DNA of 64,000 nt from Balanoglossus misakiensis (Eukaryota > Animalia > Hemichordata). This document shows positions 403-40,022 of this stretch, one piece after another; position 1 is the first letter of the stretch; every line of letters begins with the position of its first letter. The stretch is from the NCBI GenBank assembly GCA_040954595.2, contig CM082591.2:9289612-9353611 (forward strand). Reading direction: 5' to 3'. Position numbers and translations under genes: made by a program. Under the pieces are notes generated by a model that saw nothing but the letters and a program-made list of their open reading frames with translations, searched no databases and was not told where the DNA came from.

Positions 403-465
403 GATCGATCTATCGATCTATCGATCTAGCAATCTAGCTATCTATCATTTTATCTATCCATCTAT
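329..465. repeat. (TATC)n microsatellite with degenerate TATCGATC units
   Basis: Tandem TATC repeats are directly visible. Confidence 0.95.
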
Positions 466-6781: not shown

Positions 6782-6812
<31 letters not shown>

Positions 6813-8906: not shown

Positions 8907-11900
8907 CTGAAATATGAGAGCATTTTTCTTCCTCACAGATGTGATCAACTTGAAATCAATGCCAGCAAACCACATGATATGATAGCCAAAGGGAGGAACA
9001 GCTATTAACTTCAAGCAATTTCAACACATGGTTCTAGTACAGATGCCCACTGAATTTTTAAAACAGACAGTCACTTTATAATTACATTAGGCTAGCTCTA
9101 TCCCTTACTATATAACGTGATAAATCCCCAGTATTCTGGTTGTCAACACAGCCAGTACATGTGTAATGACCATTGTTGTTGTTTTTGACAAATGAATTCT
9201 AGACCAAACTTGAATCAATTTCCAACAATAACAATACTGAATGCACACATCAATGTTGTGTTAATAAGCTAAATTTTGGGTATTTAATCGTGTTTCAATC
9301 AAGTATTGGAATGAGAACTGCAGCTGGTAGTGATAGACAGAAAAAAAATACTGAAAAAATAGCCAAAAGTTAGCTATGGAGCTTTACACGTGCATGTTGC
9401 TCATGATTAAATATTGTTGCTCTCGTTAACTTTTGCCTCAACTATGAACTTCCTCAAGGAGACTAACAACTTACATTTTAGGGATATGAAAAAAAAGATG
9501 GGTGGCAAAAATGAAAATAATTAAAGCTGCAAGCAGCGTTGGCGGGGCACAAGCGGTTCCCATGGTGACCAGCAAATGCCACGGCTGTATCTGCTGGGGA
9601 TACCAAGATATGGGAAAGTAGGTCAAAGGTCACCTGAGGTCAGCCCAAATTTGGGCCAAAAAATTGGACCCCATACTAGTCTAGATCCAACAAAAACCAG
9701 ACCCCTAGCCCTATTGGTTCGCCTGCAATTAGGTATGCACGTAATTAATGAGATATGCAGGTGTCACAGGTGACCCCCAATTTAGCTTGTCAATTTTAGT
9801 CCCAACCCTCCAAACGCCAAGTCTGTACCTGCTCTGGATGCCAAGATCTGGTAAAGTAGGTCAAAGGTCACCTGAGGTCATGCAAAATTTGGGCAAGAAA
9901 TTTTGACCCTATACTGGTCCATGTTCAACAAAAACCAAACCTATAGCTCTATTGGTTAGCCTGGAATTAGGTATGCACATAATTAATGAGGTTGGCAGGT
10001 GTCACAGGTGACCCCCAATTTAGGCTTTTCAATTTTAGTCACAACCCTCCAAACGCCAAGTCTGTACTTGCTCGGATGCTGAGATATAGGAAAGTAGGTC
10101 AAAGGTCACCTGAGGTCACCCCAAATTTGGGCAAAAAAATTAGACCCCATACTAGTCTAGGTCCAACATAAACCAGACCCCTAGCCCTATTGGTTCGTCT
10201 GCAATTAGGTATGCACATAATTAATGAGGTCTTGTGTAAGACTCCATTATGTGCTCAATCCCCATTAAAGCCAGGGCTCTAACTGCTCTGGATGCTGAGA
10301 TATGGGAAAGTAGATCAAAGGTCACCCAAGGTCACCCAAAATTAGGGCATAAAATGTTGACCCCAGAGTGGGCCATGTCCAACCAATACCAGACCTCTAG
10401 CCCTATTGGGTAGCATGGAATTAGATATGCAGAAAAATGATGTTTCAGAAATAGGTCAAAGGTCATTGTCAAAACTACCAAAATATTTGTGTCATGTCCT
10501 GGCAGCATTGGTACCCATGTCCACAAAATTCATGACTGTGGTGCTTTGACAAGAGGAAGTATGGGGAATATGCATATATAATTAGTTGTTTTAAAACTGG
10601 GTCAAAGGTCATGTGAAAATTGCCCTGAAAAATTGTGACAACTTCCGGTCAGATGATGACTCATATCCAAAAAAAGAATTTCCATGCTGTCAACATTTTG
10701 GCTACAAAACGGAATTATCACTGTTCAATGGTTTTCCGAAAATCCAACATGGCCACCATAATGATCGACCAATCACAGTGAGCTTCGCAAACTTGATAGA
10801 CATATGTTAGGTGACCACATATCCCAAATCCCGAGACTCGGTAACCGCTGGTTCTGGAGAAGAAGATTTTTAAAGTTTTAAGTAGTTTTTCAGTAAAACA
10901 ATTGTAGCAAAAAAACTTTATGTATGACGTCATGATTTCAATGGGGTAAAATGATGGACAGAAGGTAGGCTACCTGCACACCAAATTTGAACTCGATCGG
11001 CCAAGTGGTTTTTGAGAAGGACTCATTTAACGATTTTCAGGAAATCCAATATGGCCGCCAGGTCACGTGACTAATTAAATATTCACGGGCCACTGCACGT
11101 CTACTCATTGGCCCCTATCACCCTACCAAGTTTCAGCCCCCTAGGTGCTGCCGTTTTCCAGATCTACCTGGCCGAAAATCTCAGAAGAAGAAGAATAATA
11201 ATAATAATTAAAGCTGCAAGCAGCGTTGGCGGGGCACAAGCGGTTCCCATGGTGACCAGCAAATACCACAGCTGTATCTGCTGGGGATACAAAGATATGG
11301 GAAAGTAGGTCAAAGGTCACCTAAGGTCACCCTAAATTTGGGCAAAAAAATTGGACCCCATATAAGTCTAGGTCCAACAAAAACAAGACCCCTAGCTCTA
11401 TTGGTTCGCCTAGAATTAGGTATGCGCATAATTAATGAGGTCTTGTGTAAGACTCCATATGTGCTCCATCTGCCCCCTAAAAGCCAGGACTCTAACTGCT
11501 GTGGATGCTGAGATATGGGAAAGTAGATCAAAGGTCATCCAAGGTCACCCAAAATTTGGGCATAAAATTTTGATCCCAGAGTGGGCCATGTCCAACTAAA
11601 ACCAGACCTCTAGCCCTATTGGTTAGCCTGGAATTAGATATGCAGAAAAATGATGTTTCAGAAATAGGTCAAGGGTCATTGCCAAAATTACCAAAATATT
11701 TGTGCCATGTCCTGGCTGCATTGGTACCCATGTCCACAAAATTCATGACTGTGGTGCTTTGACAAGAGGAGGTATGTTGAATATGCATATATAATTAGTT
11801 GTTTTAAAACTGGGTCAAAGGTCATGTGAAAATTGCCCCGAAAAATTGTGACAACTTCCGGTCATATGATGACTCATATCCAAAAAAAGAATTTCCGTGC

Positions 11901-12426
11901 TGTCAATATTTTGGCTACAAAACGGAATTTTCATTTTTCAATGGTTTTCCGAAAATCCAACATGGCCGCCATAATGATCGACCAATCACAGTGTGCTTCG
12001 CAAACTTGATAGACATAGGTTAGGTGACCACATATCCCAAATCCCGAGACTCGGTAACCGCTGGTTCTGGAGAAGAAGATTTTTAAAGTTTTAGGTAGTT
12101 TTTCAGAAAAACAATTGTAGCAAAAAAACTTTATGTATGACGTCATGATTTTAATGGGGTAAAATGATGGACATAAGGTAGGCTACCTGCACACCAAATT
12201 TGAACTCGATCGGCCCAGTGGTTTTAGAGAAGGACTCATTTAACGATTTTCAGGAAATCCAATATGGCCGCCAGGTCACGTGACTAATTAAATATTCACG
12301 AGCCACTGCACGTCTACTCATTGGCCCCTACCACCCTACCAAGTTTCAGCCCCCTAGGTGCTGCGGTTTTCCAGATCTACCTGGCCGAATTTCTCGGAAG
12401 AAGAAGAAGAATAATAATAATAATAA

Positions 12427-15072
12427 TTAAAGCTGCAAGCAGCATTGTCCGGGCCCAAGCTCTATTATCTGATCTGATTATTAACTATGCACATAATTAA
12501 TGAGTAGAAACATAATGCTGTGTTTTATCCCATGAAATATCAAGTTTATATCTATGTTTGGTGTTGATATAGTGTTAAGTAGGTCAAATGTCACCCAGAG
12601 GTAACCCACAATTTGGGCAGAAAATTTTGACCCATAGTGGTCCATGTCCAACAAAAACCAGATCTCTAGCTCTTTTGGTTAGCCCGGAATTAGGTATGCA
12701 CATAAATAATGAGTTAAGCAGGTGTCACAGGTGACCAAAAACTTTGGCTTTTCATTATGGCCCCATACCTCCAAACGCCAAGGCTGTATCTGCCGTGGAT
12801 GTCAAGATATGCAAAAGTAGGTCAAAGGTCACCCGAGGTCACCCAACATTTGGGCAAAATATTTTGACCCCATATTGGTCCATGTATAACAAAAACAAAA
12901 TCTCTATGTCTATTGGTTCATCTGTAATTAGGTATGTGCATATTTAATGAGGTCAGCAGAGGTCAAAGGGGTCATGAAAAGTATCAAATTTTTTTGATCA
13001 CATACAAATCCACATACATCAAAAACCAAACTTATAGCCCTATTGGTTAGCCTGGAATTAGATATGCAGAAAAATGATGCGTCAAAAGTAGGTCAAAGGT
13101 CATTGTCAAAATTACCAAAATATTTACAGCTTATTCTTGTCATATGATGATTCATATCCTTAAGAAGAATTTCTGTGCTATCAATTTTTAGGCAAGAAAG
13201 GGAATTTTTACTTTTTAATCGTTTTTCACAACATCCAATATGGCCGCCATAATCTTCGACCAATCACATTCCTCTCAGCAAACTTGATAGACATCTGTTT
13301 AATGACCACACACACCAAATCTTGTGACTCGGTTATTGCCGGTTCTTGAGAAGAAGATTTTTGAAATTTTACTAGGGTTTTTCGAAAATCCAATATGGCC
13401 GCCAAAATCTTCGACCAATCACAATGATCTTCGCAAACTTGATAGACATCAGGTAGGTGACCACATACACCAAACCCTGTGTCTCGGTTATTGCCGGTTC
13501 TGGAGAAGAAGATTTTTGAAATTTAAGCCAGATTTCAGAAAAAAAATTGTAGCAAAAAACTGCAACTTTGTCAGCATAATTTCCAATTACAAAAATGATG
13601 GGCAGAAGGCAGTCTACCAGCATGCCAAATTTGAAGTCGATCTGACTTGTAGTTTCTGAGATCTGAGATTTGCATTTTTTTAGAAAATCCAAGATGGCTG
13701 CCAGGTCACGTGACTAATTAAAAATTCAAGGGTTCAATGCACGACTACTCATTGACCTTGACCACTGTAGCAAGTTTCAGAAGTGTACCTGCAGCGGTGT
13801 CTGAGATCTCGTGGGTCAAAGAATTGACACAAGAATAAAGAAAGAATTAAAGCTGCAAGCAGCATTGTCCGGGCCCAAGCTCTATTATCTGATCTGATGC
13901 TGATATAGTGTTAAGTAGGTCAAAGGTCACCCGAGGTCACCCAACATTTGGGCAAAATATTTTGACCCGATACTGGTCCATGTATAACAAAAACAAAACC
14001 TCTAGGTCTATTGGTTCATCTGTAATTAGGTATGTGCATATTTAATGAGGTCAGCAGAGGTCAAAGGGGTCATGAAAAGTAGCAAAAATTTTTGATCACA
14101 TACAAATCCACATACATCAAAAACCAAAATGATAGCCTTAAAGGTTAGCCTGAAATTAGATATGCAGAAAAATGATGCGTCAAAAGTAGGTCAAAGGTCA
14201 TTGCCAAAATTACCAAAATATTTATAGCTTATTCTTGGCATATGATGATTCATATCCATAAAAAGAATTTCTGTGCTATCAATTTTTAGGCTAGAAAGGG
14301 AATTTTTACTTTTTAATTGTTTTTCACAAAATCCAATATGGCCGCCATATTCTTCGACCAATCACATTCCTCTTCGCAAACTTGATAGACATCTGTTTAA
14401 TGACCACACACACCAAATCTTGTGACTCAGTTATCGCCGGTTCTTGAGAAGAAGATTTTTGAAATTTTACTAGGTTTTTCGAAAATCCAATATGGCCGCC
14501 ATAATCTTCGACCAATCACAATGATCTTCGCAAACATGATAGACCTCAGTTTGGTGACCACATACCCCAAACCGCGTGACTCGGTTATCGCCGGTTCTGG
14601 AGAAGAAGATTTTTGAAATTTTGACCAGATTTCAGAAAAACAACTGTAGCAAAAAAACTGCAACATTGACAGCATAATTTCCAATTACAAAAATGATGGG
14701 CAGAAGATAGTCTACCTGCACGCCAAATTTGAAGTCGATCTGACTTGTAGTTTCTGAGATCTGAGATTTGCATTTTTTCAGAAAATCCAAGATGGCCGCC
14801 AGGTCACGTGACTAATTAAAAATTCAAGGGTTCAATGCACGACTACTCATTGACCTTGACCACTGTAGCAAGTTTGAGAAGTGTACCTGCAGCAGTGTCT
14901 GAGATCTAGAGCGACAAAGAATTGACATAAGAATAAAGAAAGAAAGACTGAAAAATTCCAACGAAACCAATAGGGCCCAAGCCTGGCTTGGCTTGGGCCC
15001 TAAAGAAAGAAAGAAAGTAAAATTCCAACGAAACCAATACGGGCCCAAGCCTGGCTTGGCTTGGGCCCGTAA
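12427..15072. mobile_element. Helentron non-autonomous copy B1 (body 12427-13846; right hairpin 15038-15071), containing B2
   Basis: B-type left end AAAGCTGCAAGCAGCATTGTCCGGGCCCAAGC; B-type hairpin TACGGGCCCAAGC..GCTTGGGCCCGTA. Confidence 0.8.
13847..15003. mobile_element. Helentron non-autonomous copy B2, complete (~1.16 kb), nested in B1
   Basis: B-type left end at 13847 and hairpin TAGGGCCCAAGC..GCTTGGGCCCTA at 14971-15002. Confidence 0.85.
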
Positions 15073-16358
15073 TTAAAGCTGCAAGCAGCGTTGGCGGGGC
15101 ACAAGCGGTTCCCATGGTAACCAGCAAATGCCAAGGCTGTATCTGCTGTGGATGCCAAGATATGGGGAAAGTAGGTCAAAGGTCACCTGAGGTCACCCCA
15201 AATTTGGGGAAAACAGTTTGACACTGTACAGGTCCATGTCCACCAAAAACCCAACCTCTACCTTGTGGTTAGCTTGGAATGAAATATGTGCATAATTAAT
15301 GAGGTATTGTGTAAGACTCCATTATGTGCTCAAATTCCCCAAATGCCAGGGCTTTATCTGTTCTGGTACCCATGTCCACAATAATCAAACATATACCTGC
15401 ATTTGTTGGTGTAGTATATTAGACATGTGCATATAATTAAAAAAGCGCTGAAACAATGTGAAAATTGGAGTGCAAAGTTTGCTTCTATACCTATTCAGGC
15501 TATTCAAATACCAAATTAAATTGTGCCTGCATGTGTTCATAAACGTTTAAATATGCTTGACATCCATTAGTGGTATGAACTTTCGCTCGTTCACTCGTAC
15601 AACTATTTTGGTGTTTTTATTATTAGCTCTTTTGTTGATGATGATGACATTAAGTGACAAATGCGTTAAATATGTATTTGTGACAACTTTCTTTCAAGAA
15701 TAGTTGTTCACTGTTCTACCCAGGTGAATACGAGACTATTTCAGTCATTTTGCAGAAATTTATACTGCTTCCAGCTGTGGTCTATCTTTACAGGTACTAA
15801 CAACAATTTCCGTGCCCAATAACAATTGTTTCAGAAGGCTGAATGTTTATGCCTGTACATATATAAATTCACTACAGTGCATACACTGGAGAAATATTTT
15901 AAACTCATTTCTGTATTGAAAACCTTTTGGACGGTGCATACATGTATCTGTGTCATGTATATTTTTCTATAACCTTACCTGATTCAAATAAATGAAATGA
16001 ACATCATAAAAGCAGACCTTTTTGGTAGCTTAATCATAAAATAAGGGATGATCATAATAATTGGAATTCAATAAGGTCAGGTTCATCCAAAATAAGTTTC
16101 AGTGCCACATACATAGTGCAAAGTCCATGAACTGCCAATTTGCCCACCCACTGTATATATAGGCTCCTATACCGCTCAGCGCCACCAACGGAAGAATGGA
16201 GAGAAGAGATTTTCATTCACGTTGATCTTATCATTAGATGTTTGCACCAAAATATAATAAATGAGCAATGATAACGATGGGGAAATTAATTATATGTTGA
16301 TTGAAACATAACAGTCATCGCAAGTGTAACAACGAACTCGTTTATTTGAACGTCTTGG

Positions 16359-16450
16359 GCGGAAGTGACGTACAAAAGAAAGGCAGAATACCAATGTTTG
16401 GGGGCGCTATACCAATTACAGCCACACTCTATACTGAACTACTGGTGAGT
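16359..16450 (+). promoter_or_regulatory. candidate Helentron promoter / first non-coding exon
   Basis: GCGGAAGTGACGT (overlapping ETS and CRE half-site) lies in a locally CpG-richer patch and is followed by a GTGAGT donor near 16445. Downstream are a 26 nt AG/GTAAGT mini-exon (18838-18863) and an acceptor TTTCAG abutting the ATG at 19800. Confidence 0.4.
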
Positions 16451-16821
16451 ATATTTTGTAAAGCCCGTCTTTCGAAAATTAGTTTTAGATAAGCGATCCC
16501 GATGTTTCAAGGCACGAAAGATATATGACACTGTGCGGGAAGATGTTGGGTTATGAGTACTTGATGGCCATCATCGAAGTTTAATTCGATTGTGTGAAAT
16601 TATTGACGATTCTTTTCGATCGCTGACACAGCTGCCTAAAAAGTAGGGTTAGGGACTTAGGGTAAAAATAGAATCGCGACCACCACATGCGGTCTGCAGG
16701 TGAGTTTGTTTTGGTTCTTTCTTGAAACGTGCAGCTTTTTGGATGAAATAATACATTACAGAACCCAGCAAAACTGTAAGTATCTGTGCAAATGGTTCGC
16801 TATGTAATCGAAGGGAAATCC

Positions 16822-16916
16822 TTAGCTGCAATGATTGTAGCGGGTGCTGCTAGGTTGACTGATGCTGCGAACACACCAGTCAACCTAGCAGCACCCGCTA
16901 CAATCATTGCAGCTAA
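16822..16916. repeat. perfect 40 bp inverted repeat with 15 nt loop
   Basis: TTAGCTGCAATGATTGTAGCGGGTGCTGCTAGGTTGACTG (16822-16861) and its exact reverse complement (16877-16916). Confidence 0.95.
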
Positions 16917-17795
16917 TAAACACATTCTCAGTTTTGTACATTTCATATTAGTGTCATTGAGGAAGAAATTGCAGTTATATTAAACCTTGGGAATATGTTC
17001 AAGAAGCAACGAATTGTAGTTTTAGCTGTGAATTGAATAATTCATTTCTATAGTCTATTAGAGGTATATGCATAGATTGCAAATAGTATTGCTGGGTATT
17101 CTTATGTTGCATTTAGACTACAATGCTGCACAAGTAGAATGAACCACAACAAAGTCACCAGGGTGAAGTGTTCATGACATACTGTAAAACAGGTCATTGG
17201 CATGACATGAAATTTTTGCTATATCAAAAGAAGCAACTGTTACGTGAGGATTAATTTTTGCTTGGTTTCATGTCTGTTCGTGTGCCAGTTTAGTTGAGTG
17301 TGTGGCACATATGTGAATGTTGGTATATACAGCCTGTGCACAGTGTATATAATTGCACCATGTGATTGCGTGTGTTTGGACCTTTGCACCTCTTTGATGC
17401 CTGTCCGTCTGTGTGCTAGTTCATCAGAGTGTGGATGCGTGTGTGTAGGTATGTCTATGTATCATGTGTTTGCATCTTTTTCTGAATCTTTGTCTGCATG
17501 TCTTTGTTGATTCATGTATGTCTGGAACTCCTGTCTGTGTGCAAGTTTATCAAAGTGGGTGTGTGTGGCTAGGTATTAGTACTACATGTACCCTTTGTTT
17601 ATGTCTGGGTGTGCACTGTCAGCCGTTCTGGATTGGCTGTGTTGTATATGTACATTGAATGATTTTTGTGTCACTATGCATGGTTCTATTGTGTATGCAG
17701 AAAACAATGTACTTACATGTATTTTGATATGCAGTATTCAGTCTTTGTAAAGGTGTTTGAATGTAAAGTGTGACGATGGGGAATGGGATCACTTA

Positions 17796-22700: not shown

Positions 22701-25700
22701 TTGAATGAAGCTAAGTGCTTTCCTGTGCTATTCCCAACTGGGTCACCCACATTTCACGATGACCGAGAGGTTAGGATAACAATAGGACGATACCTGCAAG
22801 GTCGTGTAATGAATGCAAGTAACAGATTTTCAAAAAGCACAGACTATATCTTTTATGCGCAATATCTGTCTGAAATTAACCAGGTTGTATCCAATGTGTC
22901 AATTGCTTTGAGGAAAGGAACTGCTAATGCTTGTGGCAAAAAAGTGACATCTGATGTTTTAAGTGACAGTGAATCTTTGAAACAGATTTTGAAGTCTGAT
23001 GAAGGCTATAAGTTTTTAAAACCTATAAGAGGAACTCCTCCTTATTGGCAAGCAACACAAAAAGACCTGTTTGCAATGATCAGACAGTTGGGTATACCAA
23101 CATGGTTTTGCTCATTTTCTGCTGCCGATTTACGGTGGAAAGAAGTTATTGAGACTATACTTCGTGGAGAAGGAGATGTACGTAATGCTGAGGATCTTGA
23201 ATGGTCTGAGAAATGTGCTATCTTGAGACGAAATCCTGTAACAGCAGCCAGAATGTTTGATCACAGATTTCATTGTTTTCTGAGAGAAGTCATCATGTCA
23301 CCAGCCAATCCTATTGGAAATATCAAAGATTATTTTTATCGAGTCGAGTTTCAACAACGAGGCTCACCACATACACACTGCCTATTTTGGGTTGAAAATG
23401 CACCAAAGGTTGATAGAGATACTGATGAAGATGTAGTTGATTTTGTTGACAGATATGTAACATGTCAAATGCCTTCTGTTGAGGAGGATGAGGAATTGCA
23501 AGAGATTGTGAATAAAGTTCAGAAACACAGCTCAAGGCACTCCAAATCTTGCAAGAAAAAGGGCACTAGATGCAGATTCAACTTTCCACGACCACCATCA
23601 AAGAAAACGTTCATATGCCGTCCTGATATAGATATAGAAATGACAGGTGAAGGTGAGAAGTCAAACCTTGATGACGATACCGCAACACTTGAAGAGAAAT
23701 GTCAAAGTGACACAACTCAGTTAATTGAGAATGTGATGAGCCAGATGGCTGCTAGGAATATTTTGGAAAAAGTGTGGACATGCCTGCATGACAAAGAGAA
23801 ACAGATTGATTCGGTTGATTCACTGTTTAATGAAGTCAGCATTTCTCAGGAGATGTTTGAGAAAGCACATGCAATTTTAGCAAGAAAGACAAGTGTAGTA
23901 TTAAAGCGTGAACCAAATGATATATGGGTAAACCAATACAATTCTAACCTTCTTCGTTGCTGGGATGCAAACATGGACATTCAATTTGTTGTGGATGCTT
24001 ATGCCTGTGTTGTGTACATTGTGTCATATATCTCTAAGGCAGAGAGAGAAATGGGTTTACTGCTGGAAAATGCACAGAGAGAAGCAAACAAAGAGGGAAA
24101 TGTGGATGCTAAATCTGCACTGAAACAATTAGGCAGTGTTTATCTGCACAACAGAGAAGTAAGTGCTCAAGAGGCTGTATATAGACTGTGTGGATTGAAA
24201 CTGAAGCAATCATCTCGCAAAGTCCAGTTCATTCCAACTGGAGAAACCCCTATCAAAATGAGTTTGCCATTGAGTGTAATACGTAGCAAAATGACAGGAG
24301 ATGATTTGAATGAGGATGATATCTGGTACAATAGCATTGTAGACAGATACAAGAACAGACCAAATGATGACGAGTTTGACGACATGTGTCTTGCGACATT
24401 TTGTTCAGAATATCGAATAGTGTCAAAATCAGAAGTGACAAATACCACCACTGAGAAACGTGCAAATCCAATAGTCAAGTTGGAAAATGGTGCAGGTTAC
24501 ATGCAAAAAAGATCTCGAACTGATCCAGCTGTCATTAGATATGCAAGATTTTCTGTGACCAAATTTCCAGAAAAGTATTACCGCACTATGTTAGAACTCT
24601 TCTTGCCACACTGGGTTGATTCCCAATTGAAACCAAATGGGTTTGAAACATATGAAAATTTCTATTCTGCGGGTGCAGTGAAGTGTGGATCTGCTTCTAT
24701 ACAAACAGTGAAAGTCATAGTAGATGCAAATAAAGCAATGTTTGAGAAAGAGGCTGATGCCGTTGATTTAGCTGAAGAGCTCCTTGAAGGAAGTGGTCCT
24801 CTGGAGGACGCATGGGCCCAAATCTGTCCAGAAAGTGAAATAGACAGATTAGAATGCATTGATGAACGTCAACAATTGCCTGATGATGATGTAAATGAGG
24901 AGGATATTCCAGATTTGGTGCACAAACCAAAAGGTGATTGCCACATAGAAATTTCTACCTCTGAAGTAAGGAGGGCTGATGTTCAAGCAATGTGTAGGTC
25001 ACTGAACAGGAAACAGGCAGAAGTCTTTTATAATGTCAGACAGTGGTGTCTGGATAAAAGCAATGGCAAGAACCCAGAACCTCTTTATTTGTTTGTCAGT
25101 GGTGGTGCTGGCACAGGGAAAAGCCATTTAATCAAAACCATATATCATGAAGCCAAACGAATTCTATCTCGTGTAATGGCTAACCCAGATGAAAAATCAA
25201 TACAGGTAACAGCCTCAACTGGAGTTGCAGCATTTAATGTAGGAGGTGAAACTCTCCATCATGCATTTTCAATAGCAGTAGACTCAAAACTACCATATGA
25301 GCCACTACGTGAAGAAAAACTCAACACTCTTCGTTCCAAATTGGGAAATCTTCAGATTTTAATAATAGATGAGATTTCTATGGTAGACAGAAAATTATTT
25401 CACTACGTACATGGACGATTACGTCAAATCAAACAAACACCAAGTGGTTCACCATTTGGAAATGTGTGTGTTATTGCTGTGGGTGACTTTTATCAGCTGC
25501 CACCTGTGAAAGCAAGTCCACTGTGTGTGGAAAATGATGCCATCAATATGTGGAATAGTTTCAAAATTGTGGAACTCACTGAAATAATGAGACAAAAGGA
25601 CTGTGCATTTGCAGAAGCACTAAATAGAGTAAGAATTCACAAGAAAGGGCACACACTGAGTGCAAATGATCTAGTAATGTTCAATAACCGTGTGACTGGT

Positions 25701-27083
25701 GAAGCATCTGAGGCAATTCACATCTTTGCTACAAATGCAGAAGTTAACAATTGCAATATCACAATGCTACATTCCTTGTGCTCTGATCCTGTATGTATTG
25801 AAGCACAAGATTTTAGTAAGAATACTAAGACTGGGAAACTCCAAAGAAAGGAAGGCCATCACGCCAAGGTGTATAGGACCACTTTACCAAAGACTCTCAC
25901 TCTAGCTAAGGGTGCACGAGTGCAACTGACACAAAATATTGATGTCTCTGATGGATTGGTGAATGGTGTATTTGGATCAGTATGTCACATTGATGTGAAA
26001 CCAAATGAAAGCTTTCCAACTGCTGTTTATGTTGTATTTGACAATGTGAAAGTTGGCCAAGGATTGCGAAACAAGAACCGTGTAAATATATCTGACCTTC
26101 CTGAAAACACCACCCGTATAGAACCTCAGGAAATGTCTGTTGCAAGTAATGGTGGTATTAGGAGACAATTTCCTCTGAAACTAGCATGGGCATGTACAGT
26201 GCATAAGGTACAGGGATTAACAGTTGAAAAAGCTGTTGTCAGTTTAAAGAAGATATTTGCACCAGGACAGGCATATGTTGCATTGAGTCGAGTGACATCA
26301 TTAGACGGGCTAACAATTGATGAATTTAAGACATCTTCTATATATTGCAATGAAAAGGTTCAAGCAGCCTTGGAAATGATGCCAAAGTTTGTTGATGGGT
26401 GCTTTGAGCAATTACAGCCAAACTATAGATGCTCTTTTATACTTCATAATGTTGAAGGTCTTCTGAACCACATGGAAGATATTCGTAGTGGCAAGGAATA
26501 CTTGGAGTCAGACTTTATTTGTTTGACGGAAACATGGCTAACTGAGAACCAGACAAAATGTGATGTGATAGTGAATGGATTTGAATTCAGTCACAAGCCT
26601 CGGTCAAAATCGTATAACAACTTTGATATGAATACTTCACAGTTGCAGTTGCAACATCATGGTGGTGTTGGCCTCTACGTCAAAGGAAGTCAATCTGTTG
26701 AAATTTTGGATTTGCCTGTTAGTAACTTGGAATATCTTACATTTTATGTCAAAGACATCAATACGGTGGTAGCATTAATTTACAGACCATCATCCTATAA
26801 AGCAGTCGCATTCAGGAAAAACCTTCTTCTGTTGGTGAAGGAAATGTCAAAGTATTCAGGTGCTACAGTGATCATGGGTGATTTCAATGAAAATATTTTA
26901 ACCTCATCATCTCTTGTGAAACTCATGGAAGACCATGGTTTCAAACAACACGTGAGCAAACCAACCACAGAAGCTGGTACATTGATTGACCATGTGTATG
27001 TGAAAGGAGCAGGAAAGGTGGAAGTTGACATTGTGCCAAAGTACTTCAGTTTTCATGAAGCCATCAGCATTAAGATCTATTGA
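19800..27083 (+). CDS. Helentron RepHel polyprotein: OTU protease - repeats - Zn finger - HUH Rep - Pif1 helicase - AP endonuclease (2427 aa)
   Basis: OTU: GDGNCLFRALS..WG..E..HFE. Rep: VEFQQRGSPHTH and YIVSYISK. Helicase: GGAGTGKS, IIDEISM, GDFYQLPPV, FPLKLAWACTVHKVQG and GQAYVALSR. APE: HNVEGL, LTETWL, GDFNE and TLIDHVY. The frame is uninterrupted. Confidence 0.95.
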   Translation: MPRSRNWRKKRSQMKEDAALSKNSFDMTEDAALSRNSFDMKEDAALSKNSFDMTEDAALSKNSDVIKEDAALYNLSDNTLRGASLRCSKDQNCETSLRGSNLRCSKGENFETSLRGTNDSRVPANGDIVTCVNGNLQIEKAVDIAHKRNDNECIIQNVTPNEFVFSPVTTTICQELCCKLHIKYGNKVEMLDEIRSVEIGEPCNMKSIIGDGNCLFRALSYAISGSERNHAVMRKAIVNHMIANDSAYFGWLDQDQGYTSVADYIAKSRMNCLTIWGSENEILAAADLLQTNIYVYSSGTWLIHYCNAINKSNVDKGVGIYLNHRNRDHFEIVKSVKTREMVTSDYTHIECDELVSSEGMTNEFHNEADSGSCVPLKSPLDKKGNFHLSDETESVTKGRGKRPAMSERLRKKIRKQKYECNETTAKSCRAISESELYHSNSQYRETKKLKSRQHYHQIRESKKQKMKDLYEQNADYRDAKKTQSRVKYEQNPDLREAKKARIRVNYEQNPDFREAQKARIRLNYEQNPDFREAQKARIRVNYEQNPDFREAQKARIRVNYEQNPDFREAQKACVRVKYEQNTDFREAHKAQMSQQVSQKYHQDVNFRESKKTQSIQRYENDPHYKDNVLKRSRCQMIQNDIDKQNVQHVIANFRNTASEGPNCVCSVCHRRLFRKQVIVCNKDKYYSNRITSDIAVKCISEEYVHECASTCIADCPLKNNAASKLWICFTCHRKLLRGEMPVQAVANNLHVTSVPPELKCLNSLEQHLIALNIPFMKMLALPKGGQNGVHGPVVCVPSDIKKATNILPRNEFDDQMIRVKLKRKLSYKGYYEYQFVNKRHIQNALEYLQTNNQYYSDITFNMNWKNTLEKTEEVISDAESESEKSNTKSNDENNEKTKGNVSDTESNDVSSDTEDNNVSNKDTNGILMDTCLQPIDIGQDILDYHFEDISCVAPAEGNKPVCLLMEKLNEAKCFPVLFPTGSPTFHDDREVRITIGRYLQGRVMNASNRFSKSTDYIFYAQYLSEINQVVSNVSIALRKGTANACGKKVTSDVLSDSESLKQILKSDEGYKFLKPIRGTPPYWQATQKDLFAMIRQLGIPTWFCSFSAADLRWKEVIETILRGEGDVRNAEDLEWSEKCAILRRNPVTAARMFDHRFHCFLREVIMSPANPIGNIKDYFYRVEFQQRGSPHTHCLFWVENAPKVDRDTDEDVVDFVDRYVTCQMPSVEEDEELQEIVNKVQKHSSRHSKSCKKKGTRCRFNFPRPPSKKTFICRPDIDIEMTGEGEKSNLDDDTATLEEKCQSDTTQLIENVMSQMAARNILEKVWTCLHDKEKQIDSVDSLFNEVSISQEMFEKAHAILARKTSVVLKREPNDIWVNQYNSNLLRCWDANMDIQFVVDAYACVVYIVSYISKAEREMGLLLENAQREANKEGNVDAKSALKQLGSVYLHNREVSAQEAVYRLCGLKLKQSSRKVQFIPTGETPIKMSLPLSVIRSKMTGDDLNEDDIWYNSIVDRYKNRPNDDEFDDMCLATFCSEYRIVSKSEVTNTTTEKRANPIVKLENGAGYMQKRSRTDPAVIRYARFSVTKFPEKYYRTMLELFLPHWVDSQLKPNGFETYENFYSAGAVKCGSASIQTVKVIVDANKAMFEKEADAVDLAEELLEGSGPLEDAWAQICPESEIDRLECIDERQQLPDDDVNEEDIPDLVHKPKGDCHIEISTSEVRRADVQAMCRSLNRKQAEVFYNVRQWCLDKSNGKNPEPLYLFVSGGAGTGKSHLIKTIYHEAKRILSRVMANPDEKSIQVTASTGVAAFNVGGETLHHAFSIAVDSKLPYEPLREEKLNTLRSKLGNLQILIIDEISMVDRKLFHYVHGRLRQIKQTPSGSPFGNVCVIAVGDFYQLPPVKASPLCVENDAINMWNSFKIVELTEIMRQKDCAFAEALNRVRIHKKGHTLSANDLVMFNNRVTGEASEAIHIFATNAEVNNCNITMLHSLCSDPVCIEAQDFSKNTKTGKLQRKEGHHAKVYRTTLPKTLTLAKGARVQLTQNIDVSDGLVNGVFGSVCHIDVKPNESFPTAVYVVFDNVKVGQGLRNKNRVNISDLPENTTRIEPQEMSVASNGGIRRQFPLKLAWACTVHKVQGLTVEKAVVSLKKIFAPGQAYVALSRVTSLDGLTIDEFKTSSIYCNEKVQAALEMMPKFVDGCFEQLQPNYRCSFILHNVEGLLNHMEDIRSGKEYLESDFICLTETWLTENQTKCDVIVNGFEFSHKPRSKSYNNFDMNTSQLQLQHHGGVGLYVKGSQSVEILDLPVSNLEYLTFYVKDINTVVALIYRPSSYKAVAFRKNLLLLVKEMSKYSGATVIMGDFNENILTSSSLVKLMEDHGFKQHVSKPTTEAGTLIDHVYVKGAGKVEVDIVPKYFSFHEAISIKIY
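19838..20015 (+). repeat. in-frame 39 bp tandem repeat ((K/T)EDAALS(K/R)NSFDM, about 4.5 units)
   Basis: Visible in both DNA and protein. Confidence 0.9.
21207..21570 (+). repeat. in-frame 54 bp tandem repeat (YEQNPDFREAQKARIRVN, about 7 units)
   Basis: Visible in both DNA and protein; for example TACGAACAAAATCC recurs at 21315 and 21369. Confidence 0.9.
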
Positions 27084-27159
27084 AAGACTCATTGTAATAT
27101 CTACAATGTTTGACCAAACATGGTGATCTGAGAAGCAAATTTAATACAAGTGAGGTACC

Positions 27160-27517
27160 AGTGAATGGATTGAAATTCAATCACCAGCCTCTGTGCAAAT
27201 CATTAATACGGTGGTAGCAGTAATTTAAGACCACCATCATATAAAGCAGAAGTGTTCAGGAAAAACTTACTTCTGTTGATGAAAGGAAATGTAAATGTAT
27301 CCAGGTGCTTCAGTGATCATGGGTGACATCAATGAAAATATTTAAATCATCTCTTGTCAATATAATGCAAGACCTTGGTTTCAAGCAACATTTGAGCAAT
27401 CTAACTACAGAAGCTTGTACATTGATTGACCATGTGTATGTGAAAGGAACAGAAAATATTGGAGTTGAAATACTGCCAAAGTACTTCTGTCAGTTTACAT
27501 TAAGCCATCAGCATTAA
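27160..27517 (+). pseudogene. degenerate tandem duplicate of the Helentron AP-endonuclease coding region
   Basis: Matches about 26570-26610 and 26757-27075 (for example ..LTTEACTLIDHVYVKG..), with an internal deletion and frameshifts. Confidence 0.85.
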
Positions 27518-30500
27518 CATCATTAAGGCATTATGCATATAGTAATTAAAACCCGTGTTACATACAACTGGTGGGAGGGATAATGGGGTTTGAGACTTAC
27601 GGGTCCCCATTTGGGAATTGTTGGGGTGGGGGGGGGGGGGGGTTGTAAACAAATTAATATGTTACTCTTAGGTTACCCTGGTGCTAATTGTCACATTTGA
27701 TATCAAGCTGTCACTGTTTTTGTGTGATGGGAGACTAATATTTGATTGTCTATCATTTCAGAGCCATTTGTTTGACATGGCTGCAATGATTTCATTGAAA
27801 TGACATGTTCACATGCAATCATTTACATGTATCATCATTATAGTGACATGATATTATCATGTTGTAGGTCATTGTGCACACATACCTGCTTATTGATGTA
27901 TATTAAAGCACACCAATTTATAACGTGCTACAAAAAAAGAAGTCAGTGGTGGCCGTTTATGATTTCTGATGCATGACATGACTTTTATTTGACTATACCC
28001 AAAATGTTATGGGTGTGACCATGTTGTTGTGATGTTATCCATTAAATGCACCCGACTGTCATTTCTTGATGATTTTATTTATTCCAGTACTGTCAATTGA
28101 GATATGTATTTCACCTGATTTCATCAAAACTCACAGTTTTAGTCCTACATGAATGTATGTCATAATTCCAACCTGACACTTTGTTACTGTAATTAACAGA
28201 CAATATATGATATCAAAAGTGTGAGTAATAACAGTCCCAAAAGCCTTGTTTGCATTACTGCTTACACAGTGTTCTCCACAGGATTTTGGGAAAGTTAGGT
28301 GGATAATATCCATAACAATGTAATCATTATGTTAGTGATATTGCTTTCTCAAAATTTAAGAATAAGAGTGGTAGCCACCATGCTTTAATTGTTCTTTGGA
28401 GAACACTGTGCTGGCATATTTCACCCATCATCTGATCCTATATGTATACAGACAACAACATTTGGAATATGTGCAGATTCCAATATCCATGTGCATACTA
28501 GAATGAGTGTGTACTCATACAATGCGGGACTGCAGAATAGATGGATGTAGCATATGTTAATGATTCAAGTTAGTCATATTTATTATGCAGCCTGAATCAG
28601 AGGTTCACACTATGTTTTATGTAAATACCCATCAGTAAGGTTTATTTAAAGAAACCATTGTACGTGTCAAGTTAATAATGAGAAATTTGGCAAAATTGCA
28701 AAAAATATAGTAAAGCTTGAATGAAAGATTTCAATCATGTACCAAAGCATTTTCATTCTGTTGACAATGAAATGGAAGTTTGTAAATGGTGCATTGAAAA
28801 TTCTCTAGGAAGAAGGTTAATTTAAGTATGATTACACAACTTAATATTTCTAATTGATGTTTTATTACACTGTATGTAAAGTACCATTGGGGGAAATGTG
28901 TAAAACATTGATTTATAATTGGAAAAACATTAGCACCAGGGTAGCCTAGGTTTATCAATGTTCAATTCCATTTTGTAAATGTTTGAAATATATTTTTATC
29001 TATTTTCACTATGTTATCTACAGAATGACTACATATTACCACTGTCTACTTTTGTGTCTCTGAGGCTGTCATGAATGGCTTAACACACTGAAGTTAAAAT
29101 CATTATACAGACATTTGTGAAGCGATTTTAATAACCTGTCTGAAGTATAGTACCGTATGGTGTTTTATAGAATAAAACAAAAACCAATGTCCCCATATGA
29201 CGTTTGCTTTCAGAAAACAATACAAATTGCCCATCTGAGACTTAATTTTTAGGGGTACACGCACCAAGTAAAACATCCTATGAATGGCAATCCCAAAATT
29301 ATCCTTGATATCTGGTATTCAGACTTGTATTCTGTGAATCATCATTGCTATATACATGTATGTACTAACAACATGCTTTAACTGCAGTAGCAATAACTGA
29401 ACCAGTGTGAATAAATCAAACACTGTACACTGAAATATCTCACTATCGCTTTAATCGCAAACATTTAGTATGAGCTTGGTTATTGACAGATCCAAAGTAA
29501 CCCACCAACACTGACACTATCAGTTTTGCATCACGGGCATGTCATTAATTATTTACTTTTTATGTCATATTTGATTTGTTAGAGAAATACCAAACGTAGT
29601 AGACAAGGACATCAACTTTCATAAAATGTGTTCCTATTAGTACTACAGTATAAATATCTGAATTATTTTAAAAATAGTCACAGCACTTATTGGAAGAACT
29701 TATGTAACTGTATTCATACCTTGATGTTTAAATTATTGTCATTGGTTTATGTTTATTTCCATATGCTATTATTGTCAATAGGTGATTTATATGTTCACGT
29801 GACCTGCACTGACCCATACATATACTTAGAATACCAAATGTATTGGGAGACAGGTGTGTTCAATAATTATGGCTTTAACATTCATGTAACACTATCCCTA
29901 GTAAGTATACAGATCTTAGTGGTCTTGTTTGTTAGAGAGCTAACAATGGGCTACGTTAATGATAGCCACACTCCAATCAGATAAAGAATTGTTTTCCAGA
30001 AGATGTCACCTGTTATCACCAAACCATGATTTACTTTTCTAGTGTCAGGCGATGATTTGATAAGTTGAACAGTTTCCAGAAGGACCATTGTAGTGCACTG
30101 ACACCAGCAAAATGATTTCATAAGATTTCATGGAAGTTTGAATGACTGGGTTCTTCCCATTTGCATATTGATATGTTCACACCTGGTATTTACTACTTAG
30201 GTGAAGTTGATGATGGCGTCTGATGAACTTAAGTGCAAACAATAGAAATTTTAATACACAGTTCAAGCAGGTCAATCAGTTCTGGCTACCTTTATGTGGA
30301 AATTGTCAGTTGACTTTCACAACTCACTGGGAGTGCCTACAAGACTGAACTCTACTTGTTTTCTGTGTCACTCCAATCTATTCACTACTACACGACCAGC
30401 TCAGCAAAACTAGGAACAGTTCACTCTTCAGCAAATCCATTATACAGGGGATGCCACTTCAGCAACATTGCAATCTGTGTAGACCTACCAACCTGTTGTA

Positions 30501-32302
30501 TTCATCACATTCGCGCATCCACCTAGTCCTATGCACCTCTGAGAATCTCTATATTAAGAATATCTATGCCTGTACATATATAGAGTGTCTACTGTGTAGA
30601 CACGGGAGGAATATTTTATACTACGGTAATTATTGTACTTGTAAGCTTTGTGTGTATTGGTGTCATGTATTTATATATATTTTTCTGTCGGCCTGGAGCC
30701 TGATTCAAATCAACCCAAACAATACGAAAAGGAAAAATAAAAAATAACTGATTTATTTTTTGAGTCAAAGTGTAAGACTTCATTAGGTGTTCAATGCCTC
30801 CAATTGCCAAGGCTGTATCTGCTGTGGATGCCAAGATATGTGAAAGTAAGTCAAAGGTCAGCAAAGGTCACCCGAAATTTTACTGGTCCATGTCCAGCAA
30901 AAAACGTACCTCTACCTACTATTTAGCCTTTAATTAGATATGTGCTAATTAATGAGGTCAGGTGTAAGACTCCATTAGGTGTTCAATCCCTCCCAAATGC
31001 CAAGGCTGTATGTGCTCTGGATGCTGTGATATGGGAAAGAAGGTCAAAAGTCTCCTGAGGTAACCAGCGAATACCAAGGCTGTATCTGCTGTGGATACCG
31101 AGATATGGGAAAGTAGGTCAAACATCACATGAGGTCAGCCAAAATTTGGGCTTAAATTTTTTACCCCAGAATGGTCTATGTCCAACAAAAACTAAACCTC
31201 CAACCCGATTGGTTAGCTTGGAATTAGATATGCAGAAAAATGATGTATCGGAAATAGGCCCAACAAAAACCAGACCCCTAGCTCTATTGGTTCGCCTAGA
31301 ATTAGGTATGTGCATAATTAATGAGGTCTTGTGTAAGACTCCATATGTGCTCCATCGCCCCCCAAAAGCCAGGACTCTAACTGCTGTGGATGCTGAGATA
31401 TGGGAAAGTAGATCAAAGGTCATCCAAGGTCACCCAAAATTTGGGCATAATATTTTGACCCAAGAGTGGGCCATGTCCAACTAAAACCAGACCTCTAGCC
31501 CTATTGGTTAGCCTGGAATTAGATATGCAGAAAAATGATGTTTCAGAAATAGGTCAAGGGTCATTGCCAAAATTACCAAAATATTTGTGTCATGTCCTGG
31601 CAGCATTGGTACATATGTCCACAAAATTCATGACTGTGGTGCTTTGACAAGAGGAGGTATGGGGAATATGCATATATAATTAGTTGTTTTAAAACTGGGT
31701 CAAAGGTCATGTGAAAATTGCCCCCAAAAATTTTGACAACTTCCGGTCATATGATGACTCATATCCAAAAAAAGAATTTCCGTGCTGTCAACATTTTGGC
31801 TACAAAACGGAATTTTCATTTTTCAATGGTTTTCCGATAATCCAACATGGCCGCCATAATGATCGACCAATCACAGTGCGCTTCGCAAACTTGATAGACA
31901 TAGGATAGGTGACCACATACCCCGAATCCCGTAACTCGGCAATGGCTGGTTCTGGAGAAGAAGATTTTTAAAGTTTTAAGTAGTTTTTCAGAAAAACAAT
32001 TGTAGCAAAAAAACTGTATGTGTGACATCATGATTTCAATGGGGTAAAATGATGGACAGAAGGTAGGCTACCTGCACACCAAATTTGAACTCGATCGGCC
32101 CAGCAGTTTTTGAGAAGGACTCGTTTAACGATTTTCAGGAAATCCAATATGGCCGCCAGGTCACGTGACTAATTAAATATTCACGAGCCACTGCACGTCT
32201 ACACATTGGCCCCTATCACCCTACCAAGTTTTAGCCCCCTAGGTGCAGCGGTTTTCCAGATCTACCTGGCCGAATTTCTCGGAAGAAGAAGAATAATAAT
32301 AA

Positions 32303-33767
32303 TTAAAGCTGCAAGCAGCATTGTCCGGGCCCAAGCTCTTTTATCTGATCAGATTATTAGATATGCACATAATTAATGAGTAGAAACATAATGCTGTGTT
32401 TTATCCCATGAAATATCAAGGTTATATCTATGTTTGGTGCTGATATAGTGTTAAGTAGGTCAAAGGTCATCTGAGGTCACCCAAAATTTGGGCAGAAAAT
32501 GTTGACCCATAGTGGTCCATGTCCAACAAAAACCAGACCTCTAGCCCTTTTGGTTAGCCCGGAATTAGGTATGCACATAAATAATGAGTTAAGCAGGTGT
32601 CACAGGTGACCAGAAACTTTGGCTTTTCATTATGGCCCCATACCTCCAAACGCCAAGGCTGTATCTGCTGTGGATGTCGAGATATGTAAAACTAGGTCAA
32701 AGGTCACCCGAGGTCACCCAACATTTGGGCAAAAATTTTTGACCCAATACTGGTCCATGTCCAACAGAAACCAATCCTCTAGGTCTATTGGTTCATCTGT
32801 AATTAGGTATGCACATATTTAATGAGGTCAGCAGAGGTCAAAGGGGTCATGAAAAGTAGCGAAATTTTTTGATCACATACAAATCCACATACATCAAAAA
32901 CCAAAATGATAGCCCTATAGGTTAGCCTGGAATTAGATATGCAGAAAAAACGATGTGTCAAAAGTAGGTCAAAGGTCATTGCCAAAATTACCAAAATATT
33001 TGGGGTAGGTCCTGGCAGGGGTGATACCAATGTGCACAAAAATCAGAACTCTGGTACATTTAGAACAGGTAGTATGAGCTATATATGCATATATGCAGGT
33101 TCTTAAAAAAGTAGGTCAAAGGTCATGTGAAAATTGCCAAAAAATTTGCAACATATTCTAGTCATATCACGACTCATATCCATAAAAAGAATTTGTATGC
33201 TATCTATTTTTAGACTAGAAAAATGATTTCTTAATTTTCGCTGGTTTTTACAAAATCCAATATGGCCGCCATAATCTTCGACCAATCACAACGCTCTTCG
33301 CAAACTTGATAGACATCAGTTAGGTGATGTCATACCCTAAATCCCATGACTCGGTTATTGCCGGTTCTGGAGAAGAAGATTTTTGAAGATTTTACTGTAC
33401 TTTTTCGAAAATCCAATATGGCGGCCAAAGTCACGTGACCGCTCAGGATTTTATTGTCAAACTTTAAAGGGCAGAGGACATGTGTACCATACACCAAATT
33501 TGAACTTGATTGGCCCTGTGGTTTTTGAGAAGAAGCCATTTAAAGATTTTCAGAAAATCCAATATGGCCGCCAGGTCACGTGACTAATTAAATATTCACA
33601 AGCCACTGCACATCTACTCATTGACCTTGACCACTGTAGCAAGTTTGAGAAGTGTACCTGTAGCCGTTTCAGAGATCTAGGAGAGCAAAGATTGACATAA
33701 GAATAAAGAAAGAAAAACTCCAACGAAACCAATACGGGCCCAAGCCTGGCTTGGCTTGGGCCCGTAA
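32303..33767. mobile_element. Helentron non-autonomous copy B3, complete (~1.46 kb), nested in A3
   Basis: B-type left end follows (GAA)n(AAT)n at 32303; B-type hairpin at 33733-33766. Confidence 0.85.
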
Positions 33768-34438
33768 TAATAAAGAAAAATTCCAACAATACCAATAGGG
33801 GCACAAGCCCGATAGGCTTGTGCCCCTAATAAAGAAATATTCCAACAATACCAATAGGGGCACAAGCCCGATAGGCTTGTGCCCCTAATAAAGAAGAAAT
33901 ATTCCAACAATACCAATAGGGGCACAAGCCCGATAGGCTTGTGCCCCTAAAAAAGTGTCCAACAGGGGTCGCGACCTCTTTACCGTAATTTGCGAAGACA
34001 CAAGAGACGCTCGTTTTCAAACCCAACCGTAGGCTTATCGAAACACAAACAATGTAGCAGCACGATGTGATAGGGGTGTGTGCGTAAACGTATCACCATT
34101 GAAGCGCATCATAGACGACTTTCCTGAAGTGGAAGATCGCGATTATTTATGCTTGCCAAGGTGTTACGGCAAGAGCTCGACGACGCTGTGTAGCGTTTGT
34201 CTGCGATAAGACGCAAGAATGTTGGGAAAGTAACGTACTTTTCCGTGCGCTAATTACCATGACCACGTTGACCGGTAGTGCGTGGCGGTCCGGTTATGCA
34301 AATGAAACTTTAGACATGTTAAAACTGTATTTCGCAACGCATGCTTAGAATAGGGTTGTACAAGTTAGTGTATGCGACAAATCCCACATCGTGAAAGCAT
34401 CTTCAAACGGAACACCACAAACTTCAATATCATTCAAA

Positions 34439-39485: not shown

Positions 39486-39529
39486 AGACCCTTTCTTCGA
39501 AGATGCATGCTGAGCATTCTCTGCTGTGT

Positions 39530-39773: not shown

Positions 39774-40022
39774 TGGCGTTGCTAATCTAATGCTGATAAG
39801 CCATTCACATGATTCATGGTCCAGCAATGCCCTGGGAGCGCTGCGAGATTTCTATATTGACCAGACTGTGGCCATTTGCAATGTAAAGCCGCGAAAAAAA
39901 TGAATAGTAATCAAACTAAACTCTTTGATGTTATACCCATTTAATATCAAATCTTGTCTGTTCTGAGTTTACCATTCAAAGTGTTAGACAGCACTGTCAT
40001 TGATACAGTAGTTATAATTTTG

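What the first reader, a model, noticed from the sequence alone, without database searches (positions are those of the whole stretch)
9521..33950. Matryoshka stack of six Helentrons with balanced ends: apparent self-targeted insertion into their own subterminal microsatellite
Seen: A-type left ends at 9521, 11208 and 15073; B-type left ends at 12427, 13847 and 32303. B-type right hairpins lie at 14971, 15038 and 33733; A-type right hairpins at 33796, 33855 and 33917. They parse as balanced brackets: A1[ A2[ B1[ B2[ ] ] A3[ RepHel B3[ ] ] ] ]. All five inner copies begin at an AAT|TAAAGCTGC junction in the (GAA)n(AAT)n or AAAG tract just before the host copy's right hairpin (A3 directly after B1's end), all in the same orientation. 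The displaced ~55 bp right ends pile up as short arrays. Established: Helentrons/HINEs have subterminal inverted repeats, a terminal stem-loop, internal microsatellites, TT targets and no TSD. Inference: each copy carries a landing pad for its relatives, so the stack grows inwards while every copy keeps a matched pair of ends. This differs from rolling-circle head-to-tail concatemers. I do not know whether it has been described.
Basis: partly seen in the sequence, partly recalled or inferred. Interest (0 to 1): 0.85.

Follow-up and report, generated by a model that had tools for sequence, protein, structure and literature searches.

The report
Six transposons nested inside own ends
Six related rolling-circle-type transposons, one with an intact enzyme gene, sit inside one another as a balanced 24-kb stack, likely because each new copy landed in a short T-rich repeat that every copy carries just inside its front end, a habit already proposed for fungal relatives but preserved here with every end in place.

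Summary
Six left and six right ends parse as balanced, type-matched brackets over 9521-33950 (1 of 20 arrangements). Removing each inner copy restores the host's (AAT)n or (AAAG)n tract, 59-69 nt from its terminus.

These are Helitron2/Helentron elements: five non-coding HINEs and one 17-kb copy with an intact 2,429-codon RepHel frame.

Contigs of a public sample show an intact A copy, three nest junctions absent from the window, and probably an empty allele. Relatives in other animals show the same junctions, but 102 of 122 ends lie in ordinary host DNA.

A target profile from those sites ranks the element's own tract at or near the top inside each host copy. That explains position and orientation but not a six-copy stack, so an extra pull towards resident 5' ends is inferred, not shown.

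Self-insertion giving stacked 5' ends is published for Fusarium Helitron2 (PMC5148889, PMC13342296), and this scan noted similar nests on other DNA. New variant of a known kind.

The parts
9521..33950 (-).
   Evidence: empty allele inferred
9521..11207 (-). A1 body with canonical 3' end (3' subTIR and short palindrome at 9521-9555), 238-bp internal repeats, and most of its (GAA)n(AAT)n tract
11208..12426 (-). A2 body, 3' end and most of its tract
   Evidence: 93.5% to A1 over 1190 bp
12427..13846 (-). B1 body, 3' end and part of its (AAAG)n tract
13847..15003 (-). B2, complete uninterrupted non-autonomous copy, 1157 bp
15004..15072 (-). Displaced 5' end of B1 (69 nt: rest of tract, 5' subTIR and hairpin)
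15073..32302 (-). A3 body, the autonomous Helentron (17.2 kb) with A-type 3' end at 15073 and A-type body at about 30770-32302
19794..27083 (+). Uninterrupted RepHel frame, 2429 codons: OTU, DUF6570, HUH Rep (motif at 23334), Y2 motif (24015), PIF1 helicase, C-terminal endonuclease; runs opposite to the structural orientation
32303..33767 (-). B3, complete uninterrupted non-autonomous copy, 1465 bp, of a different B subfamily from B1 and B2
33768..33829 (-). Displaced 5' end of A3 (62 nt)
33830..33888 (-). Displaced 5' end of A2 (59 nt)
33889..33950 (-). Displaced 5' end of A1 (62 nt); 14-bp hairpin, -18 kcal/mol, z -6.2

Best explanation
Six Helitron2/Helentron copies lie nested in one orientation at T-rich tracts 59-69 bases inside each host copy's 5' end, likely built by one insertion after another, with RepHel predicted to favour these tracts both because they match its ordinary target and because it is already bound at the neighbouring resident 5' hairpin. 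Shown: the nest, the restored tracts, the Helentron anatomy, and that the tract is a near-optimal match to the dispersed target profile of related families. Inferred: each insertion leaves two usable targets, the new copy's own tract and the old junction, which keeps its T-run. Four of the five inner insertions used an own tract and one (B1, after A3) reused a junction. Likely order: A1, A2, A3, then B1 and B3 in either order, B2 after B1. Inferred and untested: nicking and unwinding from a resident 5' end exposes the adjacent T-run as single strand and raises its capture rate above what sequence alone gives.
For: Balanced, type-matched parse and restored tracts. An uninterrupted A-type element (body, tract, end) assembles in run X3, so the end pieces belong to the bodies (record 17). 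Junctions not present in the window occur in the same sample: a B end followed by a variant B tract (table 5c, 15012 to 14961), a B end entering an A tract at 33897, and an end of a third type before an A tract at 33883 (table 7). In other animals, 3 of 122 ends lie in a relative's own tract (L044, L093, L112) and 2 loci hold doubled 5' ends (L015, L033). A profile from 99 dispersed host sites ranks the used site 1 of about 3340 in A1, 1-2 of 2400 in A2, 3-33 of 34400 in A3 and 16-24 of 2800 in B1, and is strand-asymmetric. Under the same profiles one tract is worth only 21-1426 bases of host DNA; a five-insertion stack was expected at 0.025 or fewer loci per genome in 17 of 18 assumed settings. 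Position 15072 scores -5.8 to -9.9 bits against training medians of 5.9-7.9.
Against: 102 of 122 ends of relatives lie in host DNA, and in the largest assembly (prefix MDSQ) 0 of 83 lie in an own tract and 2 of 83 abut another end; the nested cases come from the two smaller assemblies, which favour multi-copy sequence. Head-to-tail junctions (17 of 122) outnumber nested ones (3 of 122) and are mostly between like types, as rolling-circle tandems would be. The profile comes from other species and treats positions as independent. Copy number and genome size were assumed, and the most generous setting (10,000 copies, 300 Mb, tract worth 3 kb) expects 2.4 such stacks without any extra pull. No genome was held, so the genome-wide enrichment test could not be run. 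Nothing here tests the biochemical step.
Confidence: 0.55

Rival explanations
1. Plain target preference plus regional crowding. The elements insert before T-rich runs anywhere; their own tract is simply one of the best such runs, and repeat-rich, weakly selected regions collect and keep many insertions. No resident end is needed.
For: The own tract ranks at or near the top under a profile trained only on host sites, even with (AAT)n sites left out (ranks 1-19 at 17-20 positions). 11 of 122 ends of relatives follow host (AAT)n tracts against 3 in own tracts. The window is rich in other transposons. The outermost copy sits in an ordinary A-rich site.
Against: All six copies are in one stack and none lies in the other 39.5 kb. 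The three (AAT)3+ tracts in the window that are not element tracts (15617, 36898, 62116) are unoccupied. Expected stacks are far below one in most settings.
Confidence: 0.3
2. Fewer insertion events than it looks. Small nests such as A[B] formed once and were then copied as units by read-through of inner 3' ends, or joined by recombination, so the stack is partly inherited architecture.
For: A2 plus the start of B1 aligns with the A3 tail plus the start of B3 at 94.7% over 1758 bp across the junction. B1 and B3 share the same end variant. The whole stack seems to stand against an empty allele. Composite copying is the published model for multiple termini.
Against: B1 and B3 fall to 82-92% with large indels in their second halves, where B1 and B2 are 89-98% alike. 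The two insertion points differ by one AAT unit. The published composite product has many 5' ends and one 3' end, not balanced pairs.
Confidence: 0.12
3. Assembly artefact, or slippage that multiplied the 60-bp ends beside headless bodies.
For: The three A ends are identical over their last 50 nt. No listed contig spans an inner junction with 31 letters on both sides, and no long reads were available.
Against: Number and type of ends match the bodies. The bodies differ by 4-9% within type. Each end piece carries exactly the part of the tract that its body lacks. The same junction kinds occur in unrelated assemblies.
Confidence: 0.03

Closest known systems
FoHeli (Helitron2) of Fusarium oxysporum with multiple 5' termini: Chellapan et al. 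2016, PMC5148889 (abstract, passages, sections 6, 7, 10, 16 read); PMC13342296, 2026 (passages read)
   Same: Helitron2-type ends; short 5' pieces (31-85 nt there, 59-69 nt here) stacked, up to five in one copy; self-insertion proposed as the cause; reversed transposase frame in some subgroups.
   Different: There the described products have several 5' ends and one 3' end, and the nest is a hypothetical intermediate. Here every 5' end has its body and 3' end in place, two subfamilies alternate, and the landing site is a defined microsatellite that matches the general target.
Helentrons and HINE/DINE-1 elements: Thomas et al. 2014, PMC4067079 (passages); oyster Cg_HINE, PMC7492417 (passages); Helitron2 of Bao and Jurka 2013, PMC3627910 (passages)
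   Same: 5' subTIR with inverted repeat, microsatellite behind it, central tandem repeats, 3' subTIR and palindrome, T-rich TT targets, Rep signature, endonuclease; clustering of related insertions is mentioned.
   Different: The passages read treat the microsatellite as a structural feature and do not describe it as an insertion site for relatives.
Nested maize Helitron1 elements with multiple termini, PMC3288121 (passages); Xenopus HelenXT233 with two left termini, PMC11417382 (section 18 read)
   Same: Preference to insert near or inside other Helitrons; nested intermediates proposed; two different left termini in direct repeat on an autonomous HLE2.
   Different: Maize cases are Helitron1 with stacked, damaged 3' ends. 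The Xenopus case is described without a mechanism or a full nest.
Rolling-circle tandem arrays of Helitrons (Xiong et al. 2016, seen only as summarised in PMC12628747, passages)
   Same: Many 5' ends in one locus, one orientation.
   Different: Those are head-to-tail repeats of one truncated template; they do not give bracketed pairs of different subfamilies.
Paramecium Helitrons inserted in telomeric repeats, PMC13085455 (passages)
   Same: A strand-asymmetric simple-repeat target fixes the orientation of all copies.
   Different: The target there is a host repeat; here it is carried in the element.

Membership tests
Helentron / Helitron2 (HLE2) | RepHel protein with HUH Rep domain, two-tyrosine motif and PIF1 helicase | tested here: met
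   PF14214 E 5e-31, PF05970 E 4e-30; motifs at aa 1181 and 1408
Helentron / Helitron2 (HLE2) | Rep motif 2 signature: F/Y-x-R before the motif and S between G and P | tested here: met
   Both present at aa 1181-1195; criterion from PMC4067079
Helentron / Helitron2 (HLE2) | C-terminal apurinic-type endonuclease; DUF6570 as HLE2 marker | tested here: met
   PF03372 E 3e-6 at aa 2219-2406; PF20209 E 5e-21; marker status from PMC11417382
Helentron / Helitron2 (HLE2) | Asymmetric terminal inverted repeats of 8-15 bp; the 5' one forms a terminal hairpin, the 3' one lies 20-30 bp from the end | tested here: met
   11-nt arms match with 0 (A) or 1 (B) mismatch, 23-24 nt from the other terminus; 5' hairpins z -5.8 to -6.5, 0 of 200 shuffles as stable
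Helentron / Helitron2 (HLE2) | 3' terminal stem-loop after the 3' repeat | tested here: inconclusive
   A 12-nt palindrome is present in 6 of 6 copies but folds no better than shuffles (174 and 181 of 200)
HINE (non-autonomous Helentron) | No coding capacity; microsatellite behind the 5' inverted repeat; central tandem repeats; ends shared with an autonomous partner | tested here: met
   No frame of 150 codons in A1, A2, B1-B3; tracts; 238- and 155-bp repeats in A1, B1, B2; A ends shared with A3. The autonomous partner of B was not identified.
Helentron / Helitron2 (HLE2) | Insertion at TT without target-site duplication | tested here: inconclusive
   TT follows the canonical 3' end in 6 of 6 copies. 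The three terminal letters of the 5' end are invariant in 20 of 20 ends of relatives (some repeated loci) while the matching host positions are A in 94% and 85%, which favours no duplication, but the exact cut within the run is ambiguous.
Helentron / Helitron2 (HLE2) | RepHel falls in the HLE2 clade of a tree | not tested
   No homologue search or tree was run
Helentron / Helitron2 (HLE2) | Rolling-circle transposition through a circular intermediate | not testable with these tools
   Needs outward PCR or an assay
Self-targeting element (prefers own copies beyond sequence preference) | Own tracts hit more often than equivalent host tracts | tested here: inconclusive
   Model-based excess in the window; 3 own versus 11 host (AAT)n sites in relatives, 0 of 83 in the largest assembly; no genome held

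The most novel reading that the evidence does not exclude
HINE/Helentron microsatellites are not passengers but built-in landing pads: RepHel sitting on a resident 5' hairpin delivers relatives of any compatible subfamily, including the 17-kb autonomous element, into the T-run beside it. Each insertion adds a target, so nests grow autocatalytically, can reach six copies while an empty allele still segregates, and are the missing balanced intermediate behind multiple-5'-end Helitron2 elements and some apparent satellites across animals.
Probability: 0.35. Interest if true: 0.7.

Novelty: new variant of a known kind. Interest (0 to 1): 0.5.

Why it matters
How Helitron2/Helentron transposases choose targets has not been tested in the papers read here, and the microsatellite that HINEs carry behind their 5' end has no assigned role in them. 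This locus gives a defined site, an intact candidate enzyme and matched non-coding substrates, so the question can be tested directly. If resident ends attract new copies, the family has a self-made safe haven, stacks record insertion order, and annotation tools that pair nearest ends will mis-call such loci as satellites or chimeras. If only sequence preference is at work, the locus is still a clean example of the intermediate that the Fusarium and maize models assumed.

Tried and rejected
No whole genome is held, so the genome-wide enrichment and balance tests were not run.

Pattern scans: viral contigs gave 2 matches without the element's subterminal repeat, left out of all counts; genome contigs gave 0.

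Contig depth as a measure of how often A ends are followed by an A tract: the junction bins hold about 4-6% of the summed depth of the hairpin core and about 22-23% of that at the tract start, in X1 and X2. The tool states that summed depth is no copy number, and 10 of 90 and 8 of 58 contigs fit two places, so this is not used as evidence. X4 laid 0 contigs.

The first profile dropped 8 flanks as duplicates, several wrongly because they were plain (AAT)n; it was redone with 3 dropped, 99 kept.

The arm-mismatch count did not separate like from unlike head-to-tail junctions sharply (0-4 mismatches, 16 of 17 assessable); only L068 is called unlike, by eye.

The idea that each subfamily targets the tract type it carries fails in the window: B1 and B3 carry (AAAG)n and sit in (AAT)n. 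A 3-bp duplication at A1 was considered and rejected because B2's flank lacks it.

Literature: eight searches and nine papers read in part gave no description of a balanced multi-level nest at an own microsatellite; the terminal motif search listed only unrelated papers. No supplements were read; those of PMC5148889 and PMC13342296 may show fuller nests. Subscription papers (Yang and Bennetzen 2009, Xiong 2016, Thomas and Pritham 2015) were seen only as cited. The look-up for look-alike stretches in other genomes was empty.
Full report
Observation. A stack parse pairs them as A1 9521-33950, A2 11208-33888, B1 12427-15072, B2 13847-15003, A3 15073-33829 and B3 32303-33767, with types matching in 6 of 6 pairs; 1 of 20 orderings of right-end types would match. 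Taking out each inner copy rejoins the host's (GAA)n(AAT)n or (AAAG)n tract in register, and the cut-off end pieces are 62, 59, 62 and 69 nt. Bodies differ by 4-9% within type and about 20% between types, so they are not fresh local duplicates. No real end lies in the other 39.5 kb of the window.

What the elements are. A3 holds one uninterrupted 2429-codon frame (19794-27083, +) with OTU, DUF6570, Helitron Rep, PIF1 and endonuclease domains and the Helentron Rep signature. The other five copies are 1.2-1.7 kb and non-coding. Read on the minus strand they have the published HINE plan: 5' subterminal repeat folded into a hairpin, microsatellite, central tandem repeats, 3' subterminal repeat and palindrome (PMC4067079; PMC7492417; PMC3627910; folds; repeats). 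So the piled ends are 5' ends, and the RepHel frame runs against the structure, as reported for some Helitron2 elements. The 3' palindrome folds no better than shuffles. No tree was built.

Is the locus real, and is it alone? No genome is held. Contigs of runs X1-X3 (one sample) cover the family at very high depth. An X3 contig shows an uninterrupted A-type copy running from body through tract into the end. Three junctions that the window lacks appear: a B end followed by a variant B tract (table 5c), a B end entering an A tract at another position, and a third end type before an A tract (table 7). An empty allele is likely. In X1 a 633-nt contig aligns up to 9520 and has 26 further letters (depth 288). 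A 60-nt contig starts with one non-matching letter, then 33948 onward (depth 252). Four plus 26 letters give the 30-letter overlap expected of neighbouring contigs. The letters were not printed, so this is inference. In X2 the flank contig also stops at 9520, with 17 further letters. No listed contig bridges an inner junction by the tool's standard, and no long reads were available.

Relatives elsewhere. These are mostly animal DNA in three assemblies, and their bodies are largely unrelated to the window's. Of 122 ends, 91 follow ordinary A-rich host DNA, 11 follow host (AAT)n, 17 abut another copy's 5' end and 3 lie in a relative's own tract. L044 is the clearest case, against the intact form in L075. 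L015 and L033 hold doubled 5' ends that differ from each other. The classes are uneven: MDSQ has 0 own-tract and 2 abutting of 83; MDSP has 2 and 7 of 24; MDSO 1 and 3 of 5; the others 0 and 5 of 10. Short-read assembly can bias this both ways, so no rate is claimed.

Target preference. A profile from 99 dispersed sites (3 duplicates dropped) is one-sided and A-rich over about 17 positions. It ranks the used site 1 of about 3340 in A1, 1-2 of about 2400 in A2, 3-33 of about 34400 in A3 and 16-24 of about 2800 in B1; without (AAT)n training sites the ranks are 1-10, 2-7, 16-182 and 11-15. So each copy carries a near-optimal ordinary target, on the strand that gives the same orientation. That accounts for where and which way. 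It accounts poorly for how often. One tract is worth 21-1426 bases of host DNA, and with assumed copy numbers of 300-10,000 and genomes of 0.3-1 Gb a five-insertion stack was expected at 0.025 or fewer loci in 17 of 18 settings and at 2.4 in the most generous. The profile is from other species and the inputs are assumed. The B1/A3 junction scores -5.8 to -9.9 bits as a target, at the bottom of the training range, while the tract scores 8.9-13.2. A3 therefore probably came first and B1 reused the junction, which still has the run on one side.

Mechanism. Best reading (0.55): stepwise insertion, with sequence preference plus a boost from transposase engaged at resident 5' ends. From general knowledge of HUH transposases (recalled, not from a call), nicking at the 5' end and unwinding would expose the next bases as single strand, and the tract is the first good target there. 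That step is untested. Rivals: plain preference with regional crowding (0.3), copying of composites (0.12; the 94.7% match across the A2/B1 and A3/B3 junctions keeps it alive, the divergent second halves weaken it), artefact or slippage (0.03). That the stack arose by nested insertion at all, in whole or in large part, is well supported under the first three.

Comparison with what is known. Fusarium Helitron2 copies with repeated 31-85 nt 5' termini were attributed to self-insertion in 2016 (PMC5148889), and copies with up to five were reported in 2026 (PMC13342296). Maize Helitrons are said to insert near or inside each other (PMC3288121). A Xenopus HLE2 has two left termini (PMC11417382). 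Paramecium Helitrons take their orientation from a simple-repeat target (PMC13085455). Rolling-circle tandem arrays are a different geometry (PMC12628747). All were read in passages or named sections, none whole, no supplements. Eight searches showed no description of a balanced multi-level nest at the element's own microsatellite. Earlier notes of this scan describe similar nests in this genome and others; they are unchecked AI notes, seen after my reading was formed, and are not counted as evidence.

Verdict. A real and unusually clean structure, a new variant of a known kind. Distinctive here: two typed subfamilies, an intact autonomous copy inside the nest, a probable empty allele, and a measured match between the landing tract and the general target. 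Open: whether resident ends add a pull. Interest 0.5.

Noticed in passing
window 35509-36895 and 38004-39486: Long inverted repeat pair (93-96% alike) with 168-170 bp tandem arrays, around a 1.1-kb spacer; related arrays recur at about 45180-45820 and 52540-56230.
   Followed up: partly
window 39945-40949 and 41080-42468 (+): Two frames of 334 and 462 codons with no Pfam match. The second resembles unnamed eukaryotic clusters at 0.97-0.98, with a weak lead to Transposase_21 (12% of members): possibly a CACTA-like transposase.
   Followed up: partly
window 43211-56822: Recent duplications: 43211-44418 to 45851-47069 (97.9%), 44409-45855 to 51770-53212 and 54299-55743 (99.6%), and a 2.5-kb tandem pair 51772-54292 / 54299-56822 (99.2%), around a LINE at 47173-51678 (-).
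   Followed up: no
window 27201-27521: Degenerate second copy (83%) of the last 320 bp of the RepHel endonuclease region, just downstream of the frame.
   Followed up: no
window 19839-20146 and 21257-21570: In-frame minisatellites (39, 51 and 54 bp units) inside the RepHel N-terminal part.
   Followed up: no
window 3829-6678 (+); 34844-35302 (+); 61892-62575 (-): A LINE frame (endonuclease and reverse transcriptase), a Harbinger-type DDE fragment just right of the stack, and an XPG N-terminal match.
   Followed up: no
L075 1-2901: Head-to-tail tandem of a 1469-bp relative, neighbouring copies 96% alike.
   Followed up: partly
L031, L056, L094: Close relative of the A family in another assembly: same 5' hairpin loop with changed stem arms, and head-to-tail junctions in L031 and L094.
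   Followed up: partly
L011, L045, L046, L051: Miniature copies of under 200 bp in which the two ends nearly touch.
   Followed up: no
window 14970-15003 versus 15037-15072 and 33732-33767: B hairpins differ by a paired change on both arms (an added C-G pair in B1 and B3), which suggests selection on the fold.
   Followed up: partly
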